60,233 bases of DNA, from positions 1 through 60,233 of the forward strand of contig JBFMEU010000006.1 of assembly GCA_040753155.1 (NCBI GenBank), written 5' to 3'. Under the pieces are notes generated by a model. That model was not told where the DNA came from and did not search any database. It was given only the letters and a program-made list of their open reading frames with translations. Below, in pieces: positions 45,348-47,244 of this stretch (positions within the stretch are counted from its first letter, which is position 1; the number at the start of each line of letters is the position of its first letter). The position numbers and the translations under genes are program-made. Source of the stretch: Bacillota bacterium. Its GTDB lineage: Bacteria > Bacillota > Desulfotomaculia > Desulfotomaculales > JBFMEU01.

Positions 45348-45392
45348 ACCCGCTGGATAGGCATCTGTTGTTATGGCTTTTAACGATTATTC

Positions 45393-45640
45393 GTAACTAC
45401 TCAGGAGTCAGGAGTCAGGAGTCAGGAGTCAGGAGTCAGGAGTCAGGAGTCAGGAGTCAGGAGTCAGTAGTCAGGAGTCAGAATGAGAAAACCAGCGAAA
45501 ACATTTGAAGATTTACTGGTATGGCAGAAGGCGCACCTGTATGTACTTGCGTTTATCGTTTATCTATGGCGTTTACGAAGTATGAGCTATACGGGTATTC
45601 TGAATTCTGACTCCTGAATTCTGAATACCTGAATAGTAAC
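45393..45640 (+). mobile_element. Complete family D MITE with 8-bp target-site duplication
   Basis: GTAACTACTCAG...CTGAATAGTAAC; GATTATTC at 45385-45392 and 45641-45648; 11 heptamers; mini-ORF 45483-45617 ending GILNSDS*. Confidence 0.88.
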
Positions 45641-45677
45641 GATTATTCTATGATCATATTAAGTAGGGGGTATAGAT

Positions 45678-45857
45678 GTGGCGGAGATTAAGGCGGAAGT
45701 ATTGGCGGCGGTTAAAAAGGCGGCCCGGGACGGCAGGCTTACCTGCACCGGGGCACGCAGCCTGGCGGAAGAGCTGAAGGTGGAGCCCCGGGAAATCGGA
45801 GACGCCTGCAACGCCCTGAAGATAAAAATAAAGGCCTGCGAGTTGGGCTGTTTCTAG
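45678..45857 (+). CDS. Small Cys-containing protein (59 aa, ending CELGCF), first gene of the moeA operon; not in ORF track
   Basis: AGGGGG RBS, GTG start; MAEIKAEVLAAVKKAARDGRLTC...KIKIKACELGCF*. Confidence 0.8.
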   Translation: MAEIKAEVLAAVKKAARDGRLTCTGARSLAEELKVEPREIGDACNALKIKIKACELGCF

Positions 45858-45877
45858 GATTGGCAGGAGGGATTCGG

Positions 45878-47107
45878 ATGGGTGAGCTTTTTCAGGCCCG
45901 CACCGTGGCCGAGGCCCGGGAGCTGCTGGCCCGGCACCTGGGGGCCGGTCAGCCCGCCGGGGAAGTGGACTTGCTGGCGGGGCTGGGGCGGCGGCTGGTC
46001 CGGGACGTAATCGCCGGTGAGGATGTGCCGGGGTTTGACCGGTCCACCATGGACGGGTTTGCGGCGCGGGCCCGGGACACCTTTGGCGCTTCGGAAGGCC
46101 TGCCGGCCTACCTGGACGTGACCGGGGAGATTTTCATGGGCCGGGACGCCGGGGGCGGGCCCGCCGCCCACGAGGTTTGGCGCATTCCCACCGGGGGCGT
46201 GCTGCCGCCGGGAACCGACGCCGTGGTGATGGTGGAATACACTGAGGAACTGGACCGCCGGACCATCGGGATAACCCGCCCGGTGGCGCCGGGGGATAAC
46301 ATCGTCCGCCGGGGTGAGGATGTGGCCGCCGGGGATGTGGCGCTGGAGGCCGGGCACATCCTCAGGGCCCAGGATCTGGGGCTCCTGGCGGCGGTGGGGG
46401 TTACCCGGGTGGCGGTGGCGGAGCGGCCAAAGGTTGCCATTATCTCCACCGGCGACGAGGTGGTGCCGCCGGCGCAGAAACCCGGACCGGGACAAGTGCG
46501 GGATATCAATTCCTATGCCCTGTACGGTCAGGTGCTGGCCGCCGGGGGTGAGCCGCGGCTGTATGGCATCGCCCGGGATGAGTTTGCGGCGCTGCAGGAA
46601 CAGGTGCAGCGGGCGCTGCAGGAGTGCGGCCTGGTACTCATCTCCGGCGGCAGTTCCGTGGGCGCCAGGGATGTGGCCGTCCGGGTGATGGACTCCTTGG
46701 GCCGCCCCGGGGTGCTGTTCCACGGCATATCCATCAAGCCGGGCAAGCCCACCATCGGGGCGGTGGTGAACGGACAGCCGGTCTTCGGCCTGCCCGGGCA
46801 CCCGGTGTCCGCCATGGTGGTGTTTGACCTGCTGGTGGCGCCCCTGGTGCGGGACGGCGGGTACCGGAACGACCACCTGGAGTTTCCGGTGCGGGCCGCC
46901 ATTACCCGGACATTGCGCTCCGCCGCCGGCCGGGAGGACTATATCCGGGTGCGCCTGCTGCCGGGGGATACCGGCCTGCTGGCCGACCCGGTGCTGGGCA
47001 AGTCGGGGCTGATTGGCACCATGACCAGGGCCCGCGGGCTGGCCTATATACCGGCGGAAAAGGAAGGCGTGGAGGCCGGCGAGCAGGTGGCCGTGAAGCT
47101 TTTTTAG
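45878..47107 (+). CDS. moeA: Molybdopterin molybdotransferase
   Basis: RSTMDGFA, IPTGG, STGDE, SGGSSVG, IKPGKP, GLPGHP; AGGAGG RBS before ATG 45878. Confidence 0.95.
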   Translation: MGELFQARTVAEARELLARHLGAGQPAGEVDLLAGLGRRLVRDVIAGEDVPGFDRSTMDGFAARARDTFGASEGLPAYLDVTGEIFMGRDAGGGPAAHEVWRIPTGGVLPPGTDAVVMVEYTEELDRRTIGITRPVAPGDNIVRRGEDVAAGDVALEAGHILRAQDLGLLAAVGVTRVAVAERPKVAIISTGDEVVPPAQKPGPGQVRDINSYALYGQVLAAGGEPRLYGIARDEFAALQEQVQRALQECGLVLISGGSSVGARDVAVRVMDSLGRPGVLFHGISIKPGKPTIGAVVNGQPVFGLPGHPVSAMVVFDLLVAPLVRDGGYRNDHLEFPVRAAITRTLRSAAGREDYIRVRLLPGDTGLLADPVLGKSGLIGTMTRARGLAYIPAEKEGVEAGEQVAVKLF

Positions 47108-47109
47108 GG

Positions 47110-47226
47110 GTAAGTATTCAGCAAACCAGGTGGAGGCACGGCCTTATCGTTAGCGAACGACTTGCGGAGCACTGGAGTGAGCGGTGATAACGCCGTGCCT
47201 TAACACCGGTTTCATTGAAGATATAC
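47110..47226. mobile_element. Family C MITE (long imperfect hairpin) with 8-bp target-site duplication
   Basis: Starts GTAAGTATTCAG; TTTTAGGG at 47102-47109 and 47227-47234. Confidence 0.82.
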
Positions 47227-47244
47227 TTTTAGGGAGTGACGACC

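What the first reader, a model, noticed from the sequence alone, without database searches (positions are those of the whole stretch)
45385..47234. GTAA termini plus 8-bp target duplications point to an IS66-type DDE mobiliser for families C and D
Seen: the D element 45393-45640 is flanked by GATTATTC/GATTATTC, and the C element 47110-47226, which has an unrelated interior, is flanked by TTTTAGGG/TTTTAGGG. Both start GTAA(C/G)TA(C/T)TCAG. Established: IS66-family elements have GTAA-initiated terminal inverted repeats and 8-bp duplications. Inference: two cargo types use the same ends and are moved in trans; no IS66 transposase is in this window. The other copies show no clean duplication.
Basis: partly seen in the sequence, partly recalled or inferred. 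Interest (0 to 1): 0.7.

Follow-up and report, generated by a model that had tools for sequence, protein, structure and literature searches.

The report
Transposase-less jumping elements with IS66-type ends
Two unrelated families of short repeated DNA in this bacterium are real jumping elements without a transposase of their own, and their ends and 8-base insertion footprints match IS66-family insertion sequences found in this genome and its relatives, which most likely moved them.

Summary
D (45393-45640) and C (47110-47226) are flanked by exact 8-bp repeats and start with the stated 12-mer. That 12-mer occurs 13 times in the window against 0.26 expected.

Across the genome, 62 of 113 paired ends have an exact 8-bp flank repeat and 87 of 113 have at most one mismatch. 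Shifted flanks give 0-2 and shuffled partners average 0.5.

- The only PF03050 match in the assembly lies on another contig, in an IS66-family element: a TnpC transposase plus a DruA-like gene, with no TnpB. Its ends are GTAAG(C/T)ATTCGGTGAA, 11 of 12 like C.
- A complete 2590-bp copy in a same-order relative has an exact 8-bp duplication.
- A second IS66 lineage in relatives matches the C end 22 of 22 and a D end 12 of 12.
- The published ISBst12-group element ISDge4 has nearly the D terminus and an 8-bp repeat.

Full-length D (451 bp) carries only a PF05635 four-helix-bundle gene.

Which IS66 lineage drove the elements, and whether any is active now, remains open. Earlier notes of this scan reached the same reading of D on other contigs of this genome.

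The parts
45385..45392 (.). left copy of the 8-bp target duplication of D (GATTATTC)
   Evidence: read directly
45393..45640 (+). D element, 248 bp: an internally deleted copy of a 451-bp cassette whose only gene is a PF05635 four-helix-bundle protein
   Evidence: the full-length reference is contig C70:8540-8990, with an intact 121-aa ORF (PF05635 124 bits, TIGR02436 118 bits)
45393..45404 (+). left terminal 12-mer GTAACTACTCAG
45401..45481 (+). subterminal array of 11.6 heptamers (TCAGGAG register; contains GGAG just before the ATG)
45483..45617 (+). 44-codon remnant of the four-helix-bundle ORF (MRKPAKTFEDLLVWQKAH...)
45597..45640 (-). right arm: inverse heptamers and the terminal 12-mer GTTACTATTCAG (45629-45640, read on the minus strand)
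45641..45648 (.). right copy of the 8-bp target duplication of D (GATTATTC)
47102..47109 (.). left copy of the 8-bp target duplication of C (TTTTAGGG); it contains the TAG stop codon of the upstream moeA
47110..47226 (+). C element, 117 bp: a deletion derivative (left 52 bp plus right 63 bp) of a ~304-bp ORF-less element with long inverted ends; folds end to end
   Evidence: fold of -46 kcal/mol, z = -4.9
47227..47234 (.). right copy of the 8-bp target duplication of C (TTTTAGGG); it runs into the GGGAG ribosome-binding region of the next gene
45132..45283 (+). context: Moco riboswitch aptamer; D sits in the leader between it and the genes it precedes
   Evidence: Rfam RF01055, 55.9 bits
45860..47107 (+). 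context: moeA (MoeA_N, MoCF_biosynth, MoeA_C)
47236..49182 (+). context: moeA fused to a PBP-like domain
44413..44612 (-). C/D chimera (C left end at 44612; D arm truncated at 44413), no duplication
   Evidence: (I1)
49190..49389 (+). C/D chimera, 200 bp, with C left end and D left end; flanks AAGAAGAC and TGACGCGG, no duplication
163..217 (+). solo D left end (fragment)
23731..23839 (+). solo D left end with the first ~36 codons of the ORF (fragment)
26933..27085 (+). D fragment (left end, then an internal piece of the ORF)
54422..54494 (-). D fragment ending in ATAACTACTCAG (minus strand), abutting a copy of another repeat family
55787..55982 (+). D fragment whose terminus is the C-type 12-mer GTAAGTATTCAG, followed by heptamers
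56022..56152 (+). C fragment interrupted after GTTATC by a small hairpin module (about 56059-56120)
   Evidence: (D10, D16)

Best explanation
C and D are two families of non-autonomous transposable elements. C is a miniature inverted-repeat element (MITE). D is a miniature passenger cassette.

They share only their outermost bases, about 12 in D and 16-22 in C: GTAA(C/G)(T/C)A(T/C)TCAG. This is the terminal inverted repeat of ISBst12-like members of the IS66 family, which have a TnpC transposase and no TnpA or TnpB.

Proposed mechanism:
1. An IS66-family DDE transposase made elsewhere in the cell recognises these termini.
2. It cuts at the GT ends.
3. It joins the element to a target cut with an 8-bp stagger, mostly in AT-rich intergenic DNA.
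4. Repair of the stagger leaves the 8-bp duplication.

Full-length D is 451 bp. It carries one gene, a PF05635 '23S rRNA intervening-sequence' four-helix-bundle protein, wrapped in inverted heptamer arrays. Most D copies, including the one in the window, are internally deleted to about 200-250 bp. C has no ORF.

Shown: the termini, the 8-bp duplications, the absence of any transposase inside the elements, and the existence of IS66-family elements with the same or nearly the same ends in this genome and in same-order relatives.

Inferred: binding of the ends by the transposase, mobilisation in trans, and which IS66 lineage did it.
For: Termini and copy number:
- The 12-mer occurs 13 times in the window against 0.26 expected and 401 times in the genome.
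- C and D together fill about 51.5 kb in 384 blocks, 1.9% of the assembly.

Footprint:
- Exact 8-bp duplications flank 62 of 113 paired ends, and 87 of 113 allow one mismatch. Shifted flanks give 0-2 and shuffled partners average 0.53.
- Other flank lengths show no such excess.
- The duplicated sites are 73% A+T in a genome that is 52% G+C.
- Restored insertion sites lie in a long open frame in 28 of 80 cases, against 868 of 1000 random positions.

No transposase inside the elements:
- The largest D copies hold only the 121-aa PF05635/TIGR02436 ORF.
- Plus/minus motif pairs 1.5-2.9 kb apart enclose ordinary genes, not a transposase.

The resident IS:
- C9:56540-57904 encodes an IS66 transposase (PF03050 207 bits; NF033517 285 bits, cut-off 180), followed by a DruA-like ORF. 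No TnpB_IS66 was found.
- Its right end is fixed by five further copies, and its left end by two deletion derivatives.
- These ends match the C ends at 11 of 12 bases.

Relatives:
- G015:C32 holds a complete 2590-bp copy with the 8-bp duplication AAATAATG.
- The second lineage in G015:C18 (2696 bp, 539-aa transposase) has a right end identical to the C left end at 22 of 22 bases. The G029:C98 right end is identical to a D right end at 12 of 12.
- G015 holds 85 copies of the 12-mer (backwards-read control: 1). Its D-like miniatures have the same 12-mer but different heptamers, and an exact 8-bp duplication in 6 of 20 (9 of 20 with at most one mismatch; shifted flanks 0).
- In five relatives, motif counts follow the presence of IS66. 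G006 has no PF03050 match and 2 motif hits against 1 in its control.

Print: ISDge4, an ISBst12-group IS66-family element, has TIRs GTGACTACTCAGCA and GTAACTGCTCAGCA and an 8-bp direct repeat, and its transposition was observed (PMC12898284, passages).
Against: - No transposition event or empty site was seen. No paralogous empty site exists in the genome.
- Contigs from four public runs of three studies, from strains about 97% identical, carry both insertions at the same places.
- 26 of 113 pairs have two or more flank mismatches. The one intact full-length D copy (C70) has no duplication.
- Every resident IS end seen (8 copies) has G at base 11, where nearly all miniature ends have A. D ends match the resident IS at only 9-10 of 12 bases.
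- The lineage with exactly matching ends was not found in this assembly, which is 91.6% complete.
- The resident transposase gene is cut by a contig end, and all other copies are deletion fragments.
- D copies of about 200 bp are only about 93% alike at the median, so the burst is not recent.
- The five-genome co-occurrence is a small sample of related genomes.
Confidence: 0.85

Rival explanations
1. Sub-hypothesis A: the driver was a type-2-like IS66 element, whose ends carry A at base 11. Such elements are seen intact in G015:C18 and decayed in G029:C98. In this organism it is now lost or unassembled, so C and D are relics of a past burst.
For: - The type-2 right end is identical to the C left end at 22 of 22 bases, and the G029 right end is identical to a D right end at 12 of 12.
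- Miniature ends almost always have A at base 11.
- Copies have diverged: median identity among ~200-bp D copies is about 93%.
- Both insertions are shared by strains about 97% identical.
Against: - tblastn and blastn found no type-2 sequence in the assembly.
- The assembly has 121 contigs and is 91.6% complete, so absence is not proven.
Confidence: 0.45
2. Sub-hypothesis B: the resident type-1 IS66 element (TnpC plus DruA-like gene, ends GTAAG(C/T)ATTCGGTGAA) cross-mobilises C and perhaps D.
For: - It is the only IS66-family transposase found in the genome.
- Its ends match C at 11 of 12 and 14 of 16 bases.
- The two ends of a single IS66-family element can differ from each other by 1-2 of 12 bases: G029 and ISDge4.
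Against: - The G-versus-A difference at base 11 is consistent.
- D ends match at only 9-10 of 12 bases.
- The gene is truncated by a contig end, and all other copies are fragments.
Confidence: 0.35
3. A DDE transposase of another family that also makes 8-bp duplications (IS256, ISL3, IS1595, IS6 and the like) moves the elements, and the resemblance to IS66 ends is coincidental.
For: Fragments of IS256-type, IS4/IS5-type and rve-type transposase genes exist in the genome.
Against: - None of them has the terminal motif at its borders, apart from unrelated miniature elements or the IS66 end nearby.
- ISL3 was not found.
- The IS256 matches are a 56-residue and a 39-residue fragment.
- The match to IS66 ends reaches 22 of 22 bases.
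- IS1595 and IS6 families were not searched.
Confidence: 0.04
4. D moves by a mechanism of its own, tied to the PF05635 protein and the heptamer hairpin as in rRNA intervening-sequence cassettes. The IS66-like 12-mer would then be incidental.
For: - PF05635 genes in 19 loci of same-order relatives mostly sit between inverted heptamer arrays (by eye about 16 of 19). Only 1 of the 19 (G015) also has the IS66-type 12-mer.
- Five of the 19 lie inside 23S rRNA genes.
Against: - C has no PF05635 gene and no heptamers, yet has the same termini and the same 8-bp footprint (12 of 20 exact).
- ORF-less D copies carry duplications.
- In G015 the heptamer differs while the 12-mer is conserved. This points to the 12-mer as the part that matters for insertion.
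Confidence: 0.05

Closest known systems
ISBst12-group insertion sequences of the IS66 family (for example ISDge4 of Deinococcus geothermalis; PMC12898284, passages read)
   Same: - The termini begin GTAAC/GTGAC and continue ..TACTCAG; the D left end matches the ISDge4 TIRs at 12 of 14 bases.
- An 8-bp direct repeat.
- A TnpC-type DDE transposase without TnpA or TnpB in the autonomous partners.
   Different: - C and D have no transposase.
- The autonomous elements found here carry a conserved second gene, DruA-like (PF14236), which the single-ORF ISBst12 group lacks.
- Direct comparison with ISfinder entries was not possible.
Bacterial MITEs and mobile insertion cassettes (MICs, IS ends around passenger genes; MIC231 is recalled from memory, not from a call)
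   Same: - Short, multi-copy and mostly intergenic, with inverted ends copied from an IS, target duplications of the IS's length, and no transposase.
- Full-length D is IS-type ends around one passenger gene.
   Different: - The passenger is itself a cassette of another kind: a PF05635 gene between heptamer arrays.
- I found no IS66-derived MITE in the library searched. That library lacks ISfinder and TnPedia.
ORF-bearing 23S rRNA intervening sequences (Coxiella burnetii IVS with S23p ORF; PMC4990558, passages read)
   Same: - A PF05635 ORF.
- A variable number of tandem heptamers directly upstream of the ATG.
- Inverted arms.
- Relatives of this genome carry such cassettes inside 23S rRNA genes.
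   Different: - D is not in rRNA.
- D has an extra outer IS66-type 12-mer and 8-bp target duplications.
- The paper calls the origin and mobility of IVSs unclear.

Membership tests
IS66 family, non-autonomous derivative (C and D) | Terminal inverted repeats beginning GTAA | tested here: met
   -.
- One D end is usually GTTAC rather than GTAAC (91 of 401 motif hits).
- The window's C right end is degenerate (GTATATCTTCAA).
IS66 family, non-autonomous derivative (C and D) | 8-bp target site duplication | tested here: met
   62 of 113 exact and 87 of 113 with at most one mismatch; controls give 0-2 and a mean of 0.53. Both window elements are exact.
IS66 family, non-autonomous derivative (C and D) | Ends shared with an autonomous element that encodes a DDE_Tnp_IS66 transposase | tested here: met
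   - Resident IS: 11 of 12 bases shared with C.
- Relatives' type-2 IS: 22 of 22 with C and 12 of 12 with D.
- The transposases match PF03050 and NF033517.
IS66 family, non-autonomous derivative (C and D) | Mobilisation in trans by that transposase | not testable with these tools
   No empty site or polymorphic insertion was seen. This needs a transposition assay.
ISBst12 group of IS66 (the autonomous partners) | TnpC only, with no TnpA or TnpB (single-ORF element) | tested here: inconclusive
   - No TnpB_IS66 in the genome.
- The complete 2590-bp copy has room only for TnpC and one more gene.
- That second gene (DruA-like, PF14236) is conserved in both lineages, so the element is not single-ORF.
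MITE | Small, ORF-less, multi-copy, with inverted ends and target duplications | tested here: met
   - C: about 304 bp or shorter, 145 blocks, folds end to end.
- D deletion copies: about 200 bp, 292 blocks.
23S rRNA intervening sequence (IVS) cassette | PF05635 ORF between inverted heptamer arms | tested here: met
   Full-length D at C70:8540-8990; the window copy keeps the arms and 44 codons.
23S rRNA intervening sequence (IVS) cassette | Located in a 23S rRNA helix and removed from the rRNA | tested here: not met
   The window D lies in an mRNA leader between a Moco riboswitch and moeA. No rRNA family matches in the window.

The most novel reading that the evidence does not exclude
In this lineage the heptamer-wrapped PF05635 cassette has been captured between ISBst12-type IS66 ends. 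This is the same build as the ORF-bearing intervening sequences of 23S rRNA, whose way of moving has been an open question since the 1990s. IS66-family transposases would then be a concrete vehicle by which such cassettes spread and multiply.

In addition, the IS lineages involved always carry a DruA-like gene that is better conserved than the transposase. It may be a required transposition partner and not a passenger. That would give the DUF4338/DruA domain, known from the Druantia defence system, a role in DNA transposition.
Probability: 0.25. Interest if true: 0.7.

Novelty: new variant of a known kind. Interest (0 to 1): 0.5.

Why it matters
- It turns a pattern seen by eye into a tested case. 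About 2% of this genome consists of transposase-less elements that carry the signature of one IS family, and candidate drivers are now identified.
- It shows that two unrelated interiors, one of them a four-helix-bundle gene cassette of the rRNA intervening-sequence type, use the same ends.
- It offers a testable route for the spread of that enigmatic gene family: supply TnpC and score the movement of marked mini-elements.
- It flags an IS66 sublineage with a conserved DruA-like partner gene.
- The two window insertions sit in an mRNA leader behind a Moco riboswitch and between two moeA genes. The duplicated 8-mers preserve the upstream stop codon and the sequence just before the downstream ribosome-binding site. 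This illustrates how such elements persist inside operons.

Tried and rejected
- **Long motif pairs.** Plus/minus motif pairs 1.5-2.9 kb apart were examined as candidate autonomous elements. They enclose ordinary genes (prfA-like, a thiolase-like gene and others), so they are neighbouring elements, not one IS.
- **Over-permissive end models.** 24-base end models allowing 5 mismatches over-called the heptamer arrays (622 spurious 'D left' hits), which spoiled the pairing. One search replaced them.
- **Paralogous empty sites.** 60+52-bp restored sites were searched against the genome. The only spanning hit was a self-overlap on C46.
- **Empty alleles in public data.** Contigs of 4 runs were laid on 44900-47700. 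No joint skips either element. The listed joints between 45640 and 47110 and from 47226 back to 45393 are cross-mapping of similar ends from other loci. Contigs cannot show absence.
- **Other transposase families.** IS256, ISL3, DDE_Tnp_1 and rve were searched and their surroundings scanned for the termini. None is bounded by them.
- **Type-2 IS in this genome.** Not found by tblastn or blastn.
- **Full-length D-like copy in G015 (514 bp).** Its ORF is broken and it has no duplication.
- **Literature.**
  - IS66 with MITE and 8-bp, and 'IS66 family' with miniature inverted-repeat and non-autonomous, gave no IS66-derived MITE.
  - The prokaryotic MITE review PMC10969869 and preprint 10.1101/2024.01.18.576219 do not mention IS66 (term search only).
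  - DUF4338 with IS66: 0 papers.
  - DUF4338 with transposase: 2 papers, seen as listing only.
  - PF05635, TIGR02436 and S23p terms gave only a DGR review and the Coxiella IVS paper as relevant titles.
  - PMC9769881 and PMC3189936 mention IS66 only in IS tables.
- **Name clash.** PMC8024623 uses the name ISGka4 for an ISLre2-family element with 9-bp repeats. The 'ISGka4' named as ISBst12-group in an earlier scan note could not be confirmed here.
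Full report
**1. The observation**

Read directly, the D element runs from 45393 (GTAACTACTCAG) to 45640 (CTGAATAGTAAC). GATTATTC lies on both sides, at 45385-45392 and 45641-45648. The C element runs from 47110 (GTAAGTATTCAG) to 47226, with TTTTAGGG on both sides, at 47102-47109 and 47227-47234.

The 12-mer GTAASTAYTCAG, allowing one mismatch, occurs 13 times in the window. Shuffles give 0.26 on average, and 0 of 100 reach 13.

The window is contig C6 of an assembly of 2.75 Mb in 121 contigs, 52% G+C. That assembly holds 401 such 12-mers. 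The commonest are GTAACTACTCAG (130), GTTACTATTCAG (91), GTAAGCATTCAG (33) and GTAAGTATTCAG (30).

**2. Is the 8-bp repeat more than chance?**

A first pass paired each plus-strand 12-mer with the next minus-strand one within 3 kb. Of 93 pairs, 48 had identical 8-bp flanks. Flank lengths 6, 7 and 10-12 gave 0, and length 9 gave 1.

A second pass used six terminal 12-mers and gave 477 terminal hits: 302 classed D, 125 classed C and 50 other. Pairs 40-700 bp apart numbered 113.
- Flanks were identical in 62 and differed at one base or less in 87.
- By class: D-D 49 of 86 exact (67 with at most one mismatch); C-C 12 of 20 exact (19 with at most one mismatch); C-D chimeras 0 of 5; D-other 1 of 2.
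- Shifting the right flank by -4 to +4 bases gave 0-2 exact matches.
- 1000 shuffles of partners gave a mean of 0.53 and a maximum of 4.

Hits that did not pair are solo or truncated ends. Mis-paired neighbours count among the failures.

The duplicated 8-mers are 73% A+T. Restored sites lie in an open frame of 100 codons or more in 28 of 80 cases, against 868 of 1000 random positions, so insertions are strongly intergenic.

An intermediate attempt with 24-base end models over-called the heptamer arrays and was dropped.

**3. What the elements are**

*D.* The longest D copies show the parent form. C70:8540-8990 is 451 bp and holds an intact 121-codon ORF. This ORF matches PF05635 (23S rRNA intervening-sequence protein, 124 bits), TIGR02436 (four helix bundle protein, 118 bits) and, weakly, Avd models.
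- The ORF starts directly after a run of GAGTCAG heptamers, which contain GGAG.
- It ends inside the inverse heptamers of the right arm.
- Most copies are internal deletions of about 200 bp.
- The window copy keeps 11.6 heptamers on the left, 44 codons of the ORF and the right arm.

*C.* C is unrelated inside. Its full form is about 304 bp with long inverted ends and no ORF that I saw. The window copy is the left 52 bp joined to the right 63 bp. It folds end to end at -46 kcal/mol, z = -4.9.

*A third family.* A small family of 126 bp, for example C29:27177-27302 with the duplication TAGTGTTA, has the same kind of ends.

Together C and D cover about 51.5 kb in 384 blocks, 1.9% of the assembly. 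D copies of about 200 bp are about 93% alike at the median.

**4. The mobiliser**

No transposase lies inside the elements. The 1.5-2.9-kb motif pairs enclose ordinary genes.

*The resident IS (type 1).* A search of the whole assembly with PF03050 found one match, C9:56735-57589. It lies in an open frame of 455 codons that is cut by the contig end.
- The frame scores 285 bits against NCBIfam's IS66 transposase model, cut-off 180.
- A 290-codon ORF follows and matches Pfam DruA (PF14236, 164 bits).
- TnpB_IS66 was not found in the genome.
- A blast of this element against the genome found many deletion fragments. Five of them begin at the same base as the C9 copy, which fixes the right end as GTAA(G/A)CATTCGGTGAACTACGTAGG.
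- Two deletion derivatives (C96:5201, C53) give the left end, GTAAGTATTCGGTGAATCACCC. In C96 this end is joined to a piece of the transposase C-terminus.
- These ends match C at 11 of 12 and 14 of 16 bases, and D at 9-10 of 12.

*Relatives.* No relative of the same family is held. The 40 searched are of the same order.
- G015:C32 has a complete copy of the same IS, 2590 bp, with transposase pieces 77-79% identical.
- Its ends are GTAAGTATTCGGTAAACC and GTAAGCATTCGGTAAACT, and the exact duplication AAATAATG flanks it.

*A second lineage (type 2).* Its transposase is 38-40% identical to type 1, and its DruA-like protein is 57% identical.
- It is intact in G015:C18: 2696 bp with a 539-codon transposase and no duplication on this copy.
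- It is decayed in G029:C98.
- Its ends are GTAAGTATTCAGTGAACCCGC and GTAAGTATTCAGTAAACCAGGTAG in G015, and GTAAATATTCACTAAACC and GTAACTATTCAGTAAACT in G029.
- The G015 right end equals the C left end at 22 of 22 bases. The G029 right end equals a D right end at 12 of 12.
- Type 2 was not found in this assembly.

*Other transposase families.* The genome holds IS256-type fragments, three DDE_Tnp_1 genes and two rve genes. ISL3 was not found. None of these is bounded by the termini.

**5. Replication and co-occurrence**

| Genome | 12-mer hits (GTAASYAYTCRG) | Backwards control | PF03050 matches |
|---|---|---|---|
| G015 | 85 | 1 | 2 |
| G029 | 22 | 2 | 5 pieces |
| G035 | 25 | 2 | one 63-residue remnant |
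| G010 | 7, all IS ends | 2 | 4 |
| G006 | 2 | 1 | none |

I fetched 20 paired sites from G015, out of 21 that I counted in the listing. All 20 have the same 12-mer ends, but their heptamers differ (GGCACAAAG-like). Six of 20 have exact 8-bp duplications, 9 of 20 have at most one mismatch, and shifted flanks give 0. The conserved part is therefore the terminal 12-mer. This fits the idea that it is the site a transposase reads.

These genomes are few and related, so the co-occurrence is only suggestive.

**6. What is in print**

*ISDge4.* ISDge4 of Deinococcus geothermalis is placed by its authors in the ISBst12 group of the IS66 family.
- Its TIRs are GTGACTACTCAGCA and GTAACTGCTCAGCA.
- It has a 449-residue transposase.
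- It made the 8-bp direct repeat CCTCGATG when it transposed (PMC12898284, passages read).
- Each TIR matches the D left end at 12 of 14 bases.

That IS66-family ends begin GTAA and give 8-bp repeats as a family rule is recalled from ISfinder-based reviews. It was not checked here beyond this paper.

[quoted passage not shown] It states that the origin of such elements is unclear, with transposition as one hypothesis (PMC4990558, passages read).

*What I did not find in the library searched.*
- A description of IS66-derived MITEs.
- A link between IS66 and a DUF4338/DruA gene.
- A PF05635 cassette between IS66 ends.

ISfinder and TnPedia are not in that library.

**7. Wider context of the D cargo**

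Of 19 PF05635 loci printed from same-order relatives, most sit between inverted heptamer arrays of locus-specific sequence (by eye about 16 of 19). Five lie inside 23S rRNA genes, which Rfam confirms. Only one, in G015, also has the IS66-type 12-mer.

G035 has a cassette with the same GAGTCAG heptamer and a closely similar ORF start, but no 12-mer. The heptamer cassette is therefore the older and more widespread unit. The IS66-type termini are an outer addition seen in this genome and in G015.

**8. State of activity**

I found no empty site, either as a paralogous copy or in contigs of four public runs from three studies. In those runs, strains about 97% identical carry both insertions at the same places. 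Contigs cannot show absence of rarer alleles.

Other signs point the same way: the copies have diverged, the resident IS is decayed, and base 11 differs consistently between the resident IS and the miniatures. This fits a past burst, possibly driven by a type-2-like element that has since been lost. That is an inference.

**9. Verdict**

The case is a MITE (C) and a miniature passenger cassette (D) of an ISBst12-like IS66 lineage. The passenger and the DruA-like partner gene of the autonomous elements are unusual.

Earlier notes of this scan on other contigs of this genome (e1-2076631, e1-3223995, e1-2366875) had already read D as a four-helix-bundle cassette with IS66-type ends. I opened those notes only after reaching the same reading.

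- the C family;
- genome-wide statistics with controls;
- the resident IS and its ends;
- complete ISs in relatives, one of them with an exact 8-bp duplication;
- exact end matches to a second IS66 lineage.

Noticed in passing
window 45132-45283, with 45393-45640: A Moco (molybdenum cofactor) riboswitch aptamer (RF01055, 55.9 bits) lies just upstream. The D element is inserted in the leader, after a terminator-like hairpin and T-run at about 45300-45345 (read by eye, no terminator scan run) and about 37 bp before the first ORF of the moeA cluster. Read-through transcripts would therefore carry the element's heptamer hairpin.
   Followed up: partly
L001 434-1306 (G000 contig C9); L013 2218-3096; L044 2128-3246: Both IS66 lineages carry a DruA-like (PF14236, formerly DUF4338) gene after the transposase. 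It is 57% identical between the lineages, whereas the transposases are 38-40% identical. That suggests a conserved partner gene and not a chance passenger. No paper in the library searched links DUF4338 with IS66.
   Followed up: partly
window 44413-44612 and 49190-49389: Two C/D chimeric copies in inverted orientation (192 nt, 93% complementary) bracket the 4.6-kb moeA segment that holds the finding. Neither has a duplication. An inversion or a recombination between elements is possible but was not tested.
   Followed up: no
window 56059-56120; also families D3, D4, D7, D10 (e.g. 5392-5525, 34537-34670, 60013-60146): A small hairpin module is inserted inside a C copy after GTTATC. A ~130-bp two-hairpin repeat family occurs several times in the window. 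Earlier notes of this scan (e1-2384363, e1-2366877) describe these families.
   Followed up: no
L021, L023, L024, L026, L036 (relatives G013, G012, G009, G024, G006): PF05635 ORFs between heptamer arms lie inside 23S rRNA genes of five same-order relatives (Rfam LSU matches). These are classical ORF-bearing intervening sequences, each with its own heptamer.
   Followed up: partly
L015, L016, L025 (relatives G029, G035, G031): Some PF05635 heptamer cassettes in relatives appear to sit inside or between protein-coding genes, with coding-looking sequence continuing on both sides. The host genes were not identified.
   Followed up: no
L033 (G035:C31): A cassette with the same GAGTCAG heptamer and a closely similar ORF start to D, but without the IS66-type 12-mer at either side. 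It is either a truncated copy or the 'naked' form before capture.
   Followed up: no
window 17174-19364 versus 20215-22399: Two adjacent ~3-kb segments are 71-78% identical (families D5, D6, D8, D9, D13). This looks like a tandem duplication of a gene block.
   Followed up: no
G000 contig C16:6470-6860: A PIN-domain-like (VapC-type) ORF lies directly upstream of a 5'-truncated remnant of the IS66 transposase gene. This was read by eye from the translation, with no family search.
   Followed up: no
literature (PMC8024623): That paper uses the name ISGka4 for an ISLre2-family element with 9-bp repeats, whereas an earlier scan note lists 'ISGka4' as ISBst12-group.
   Followed up: partly
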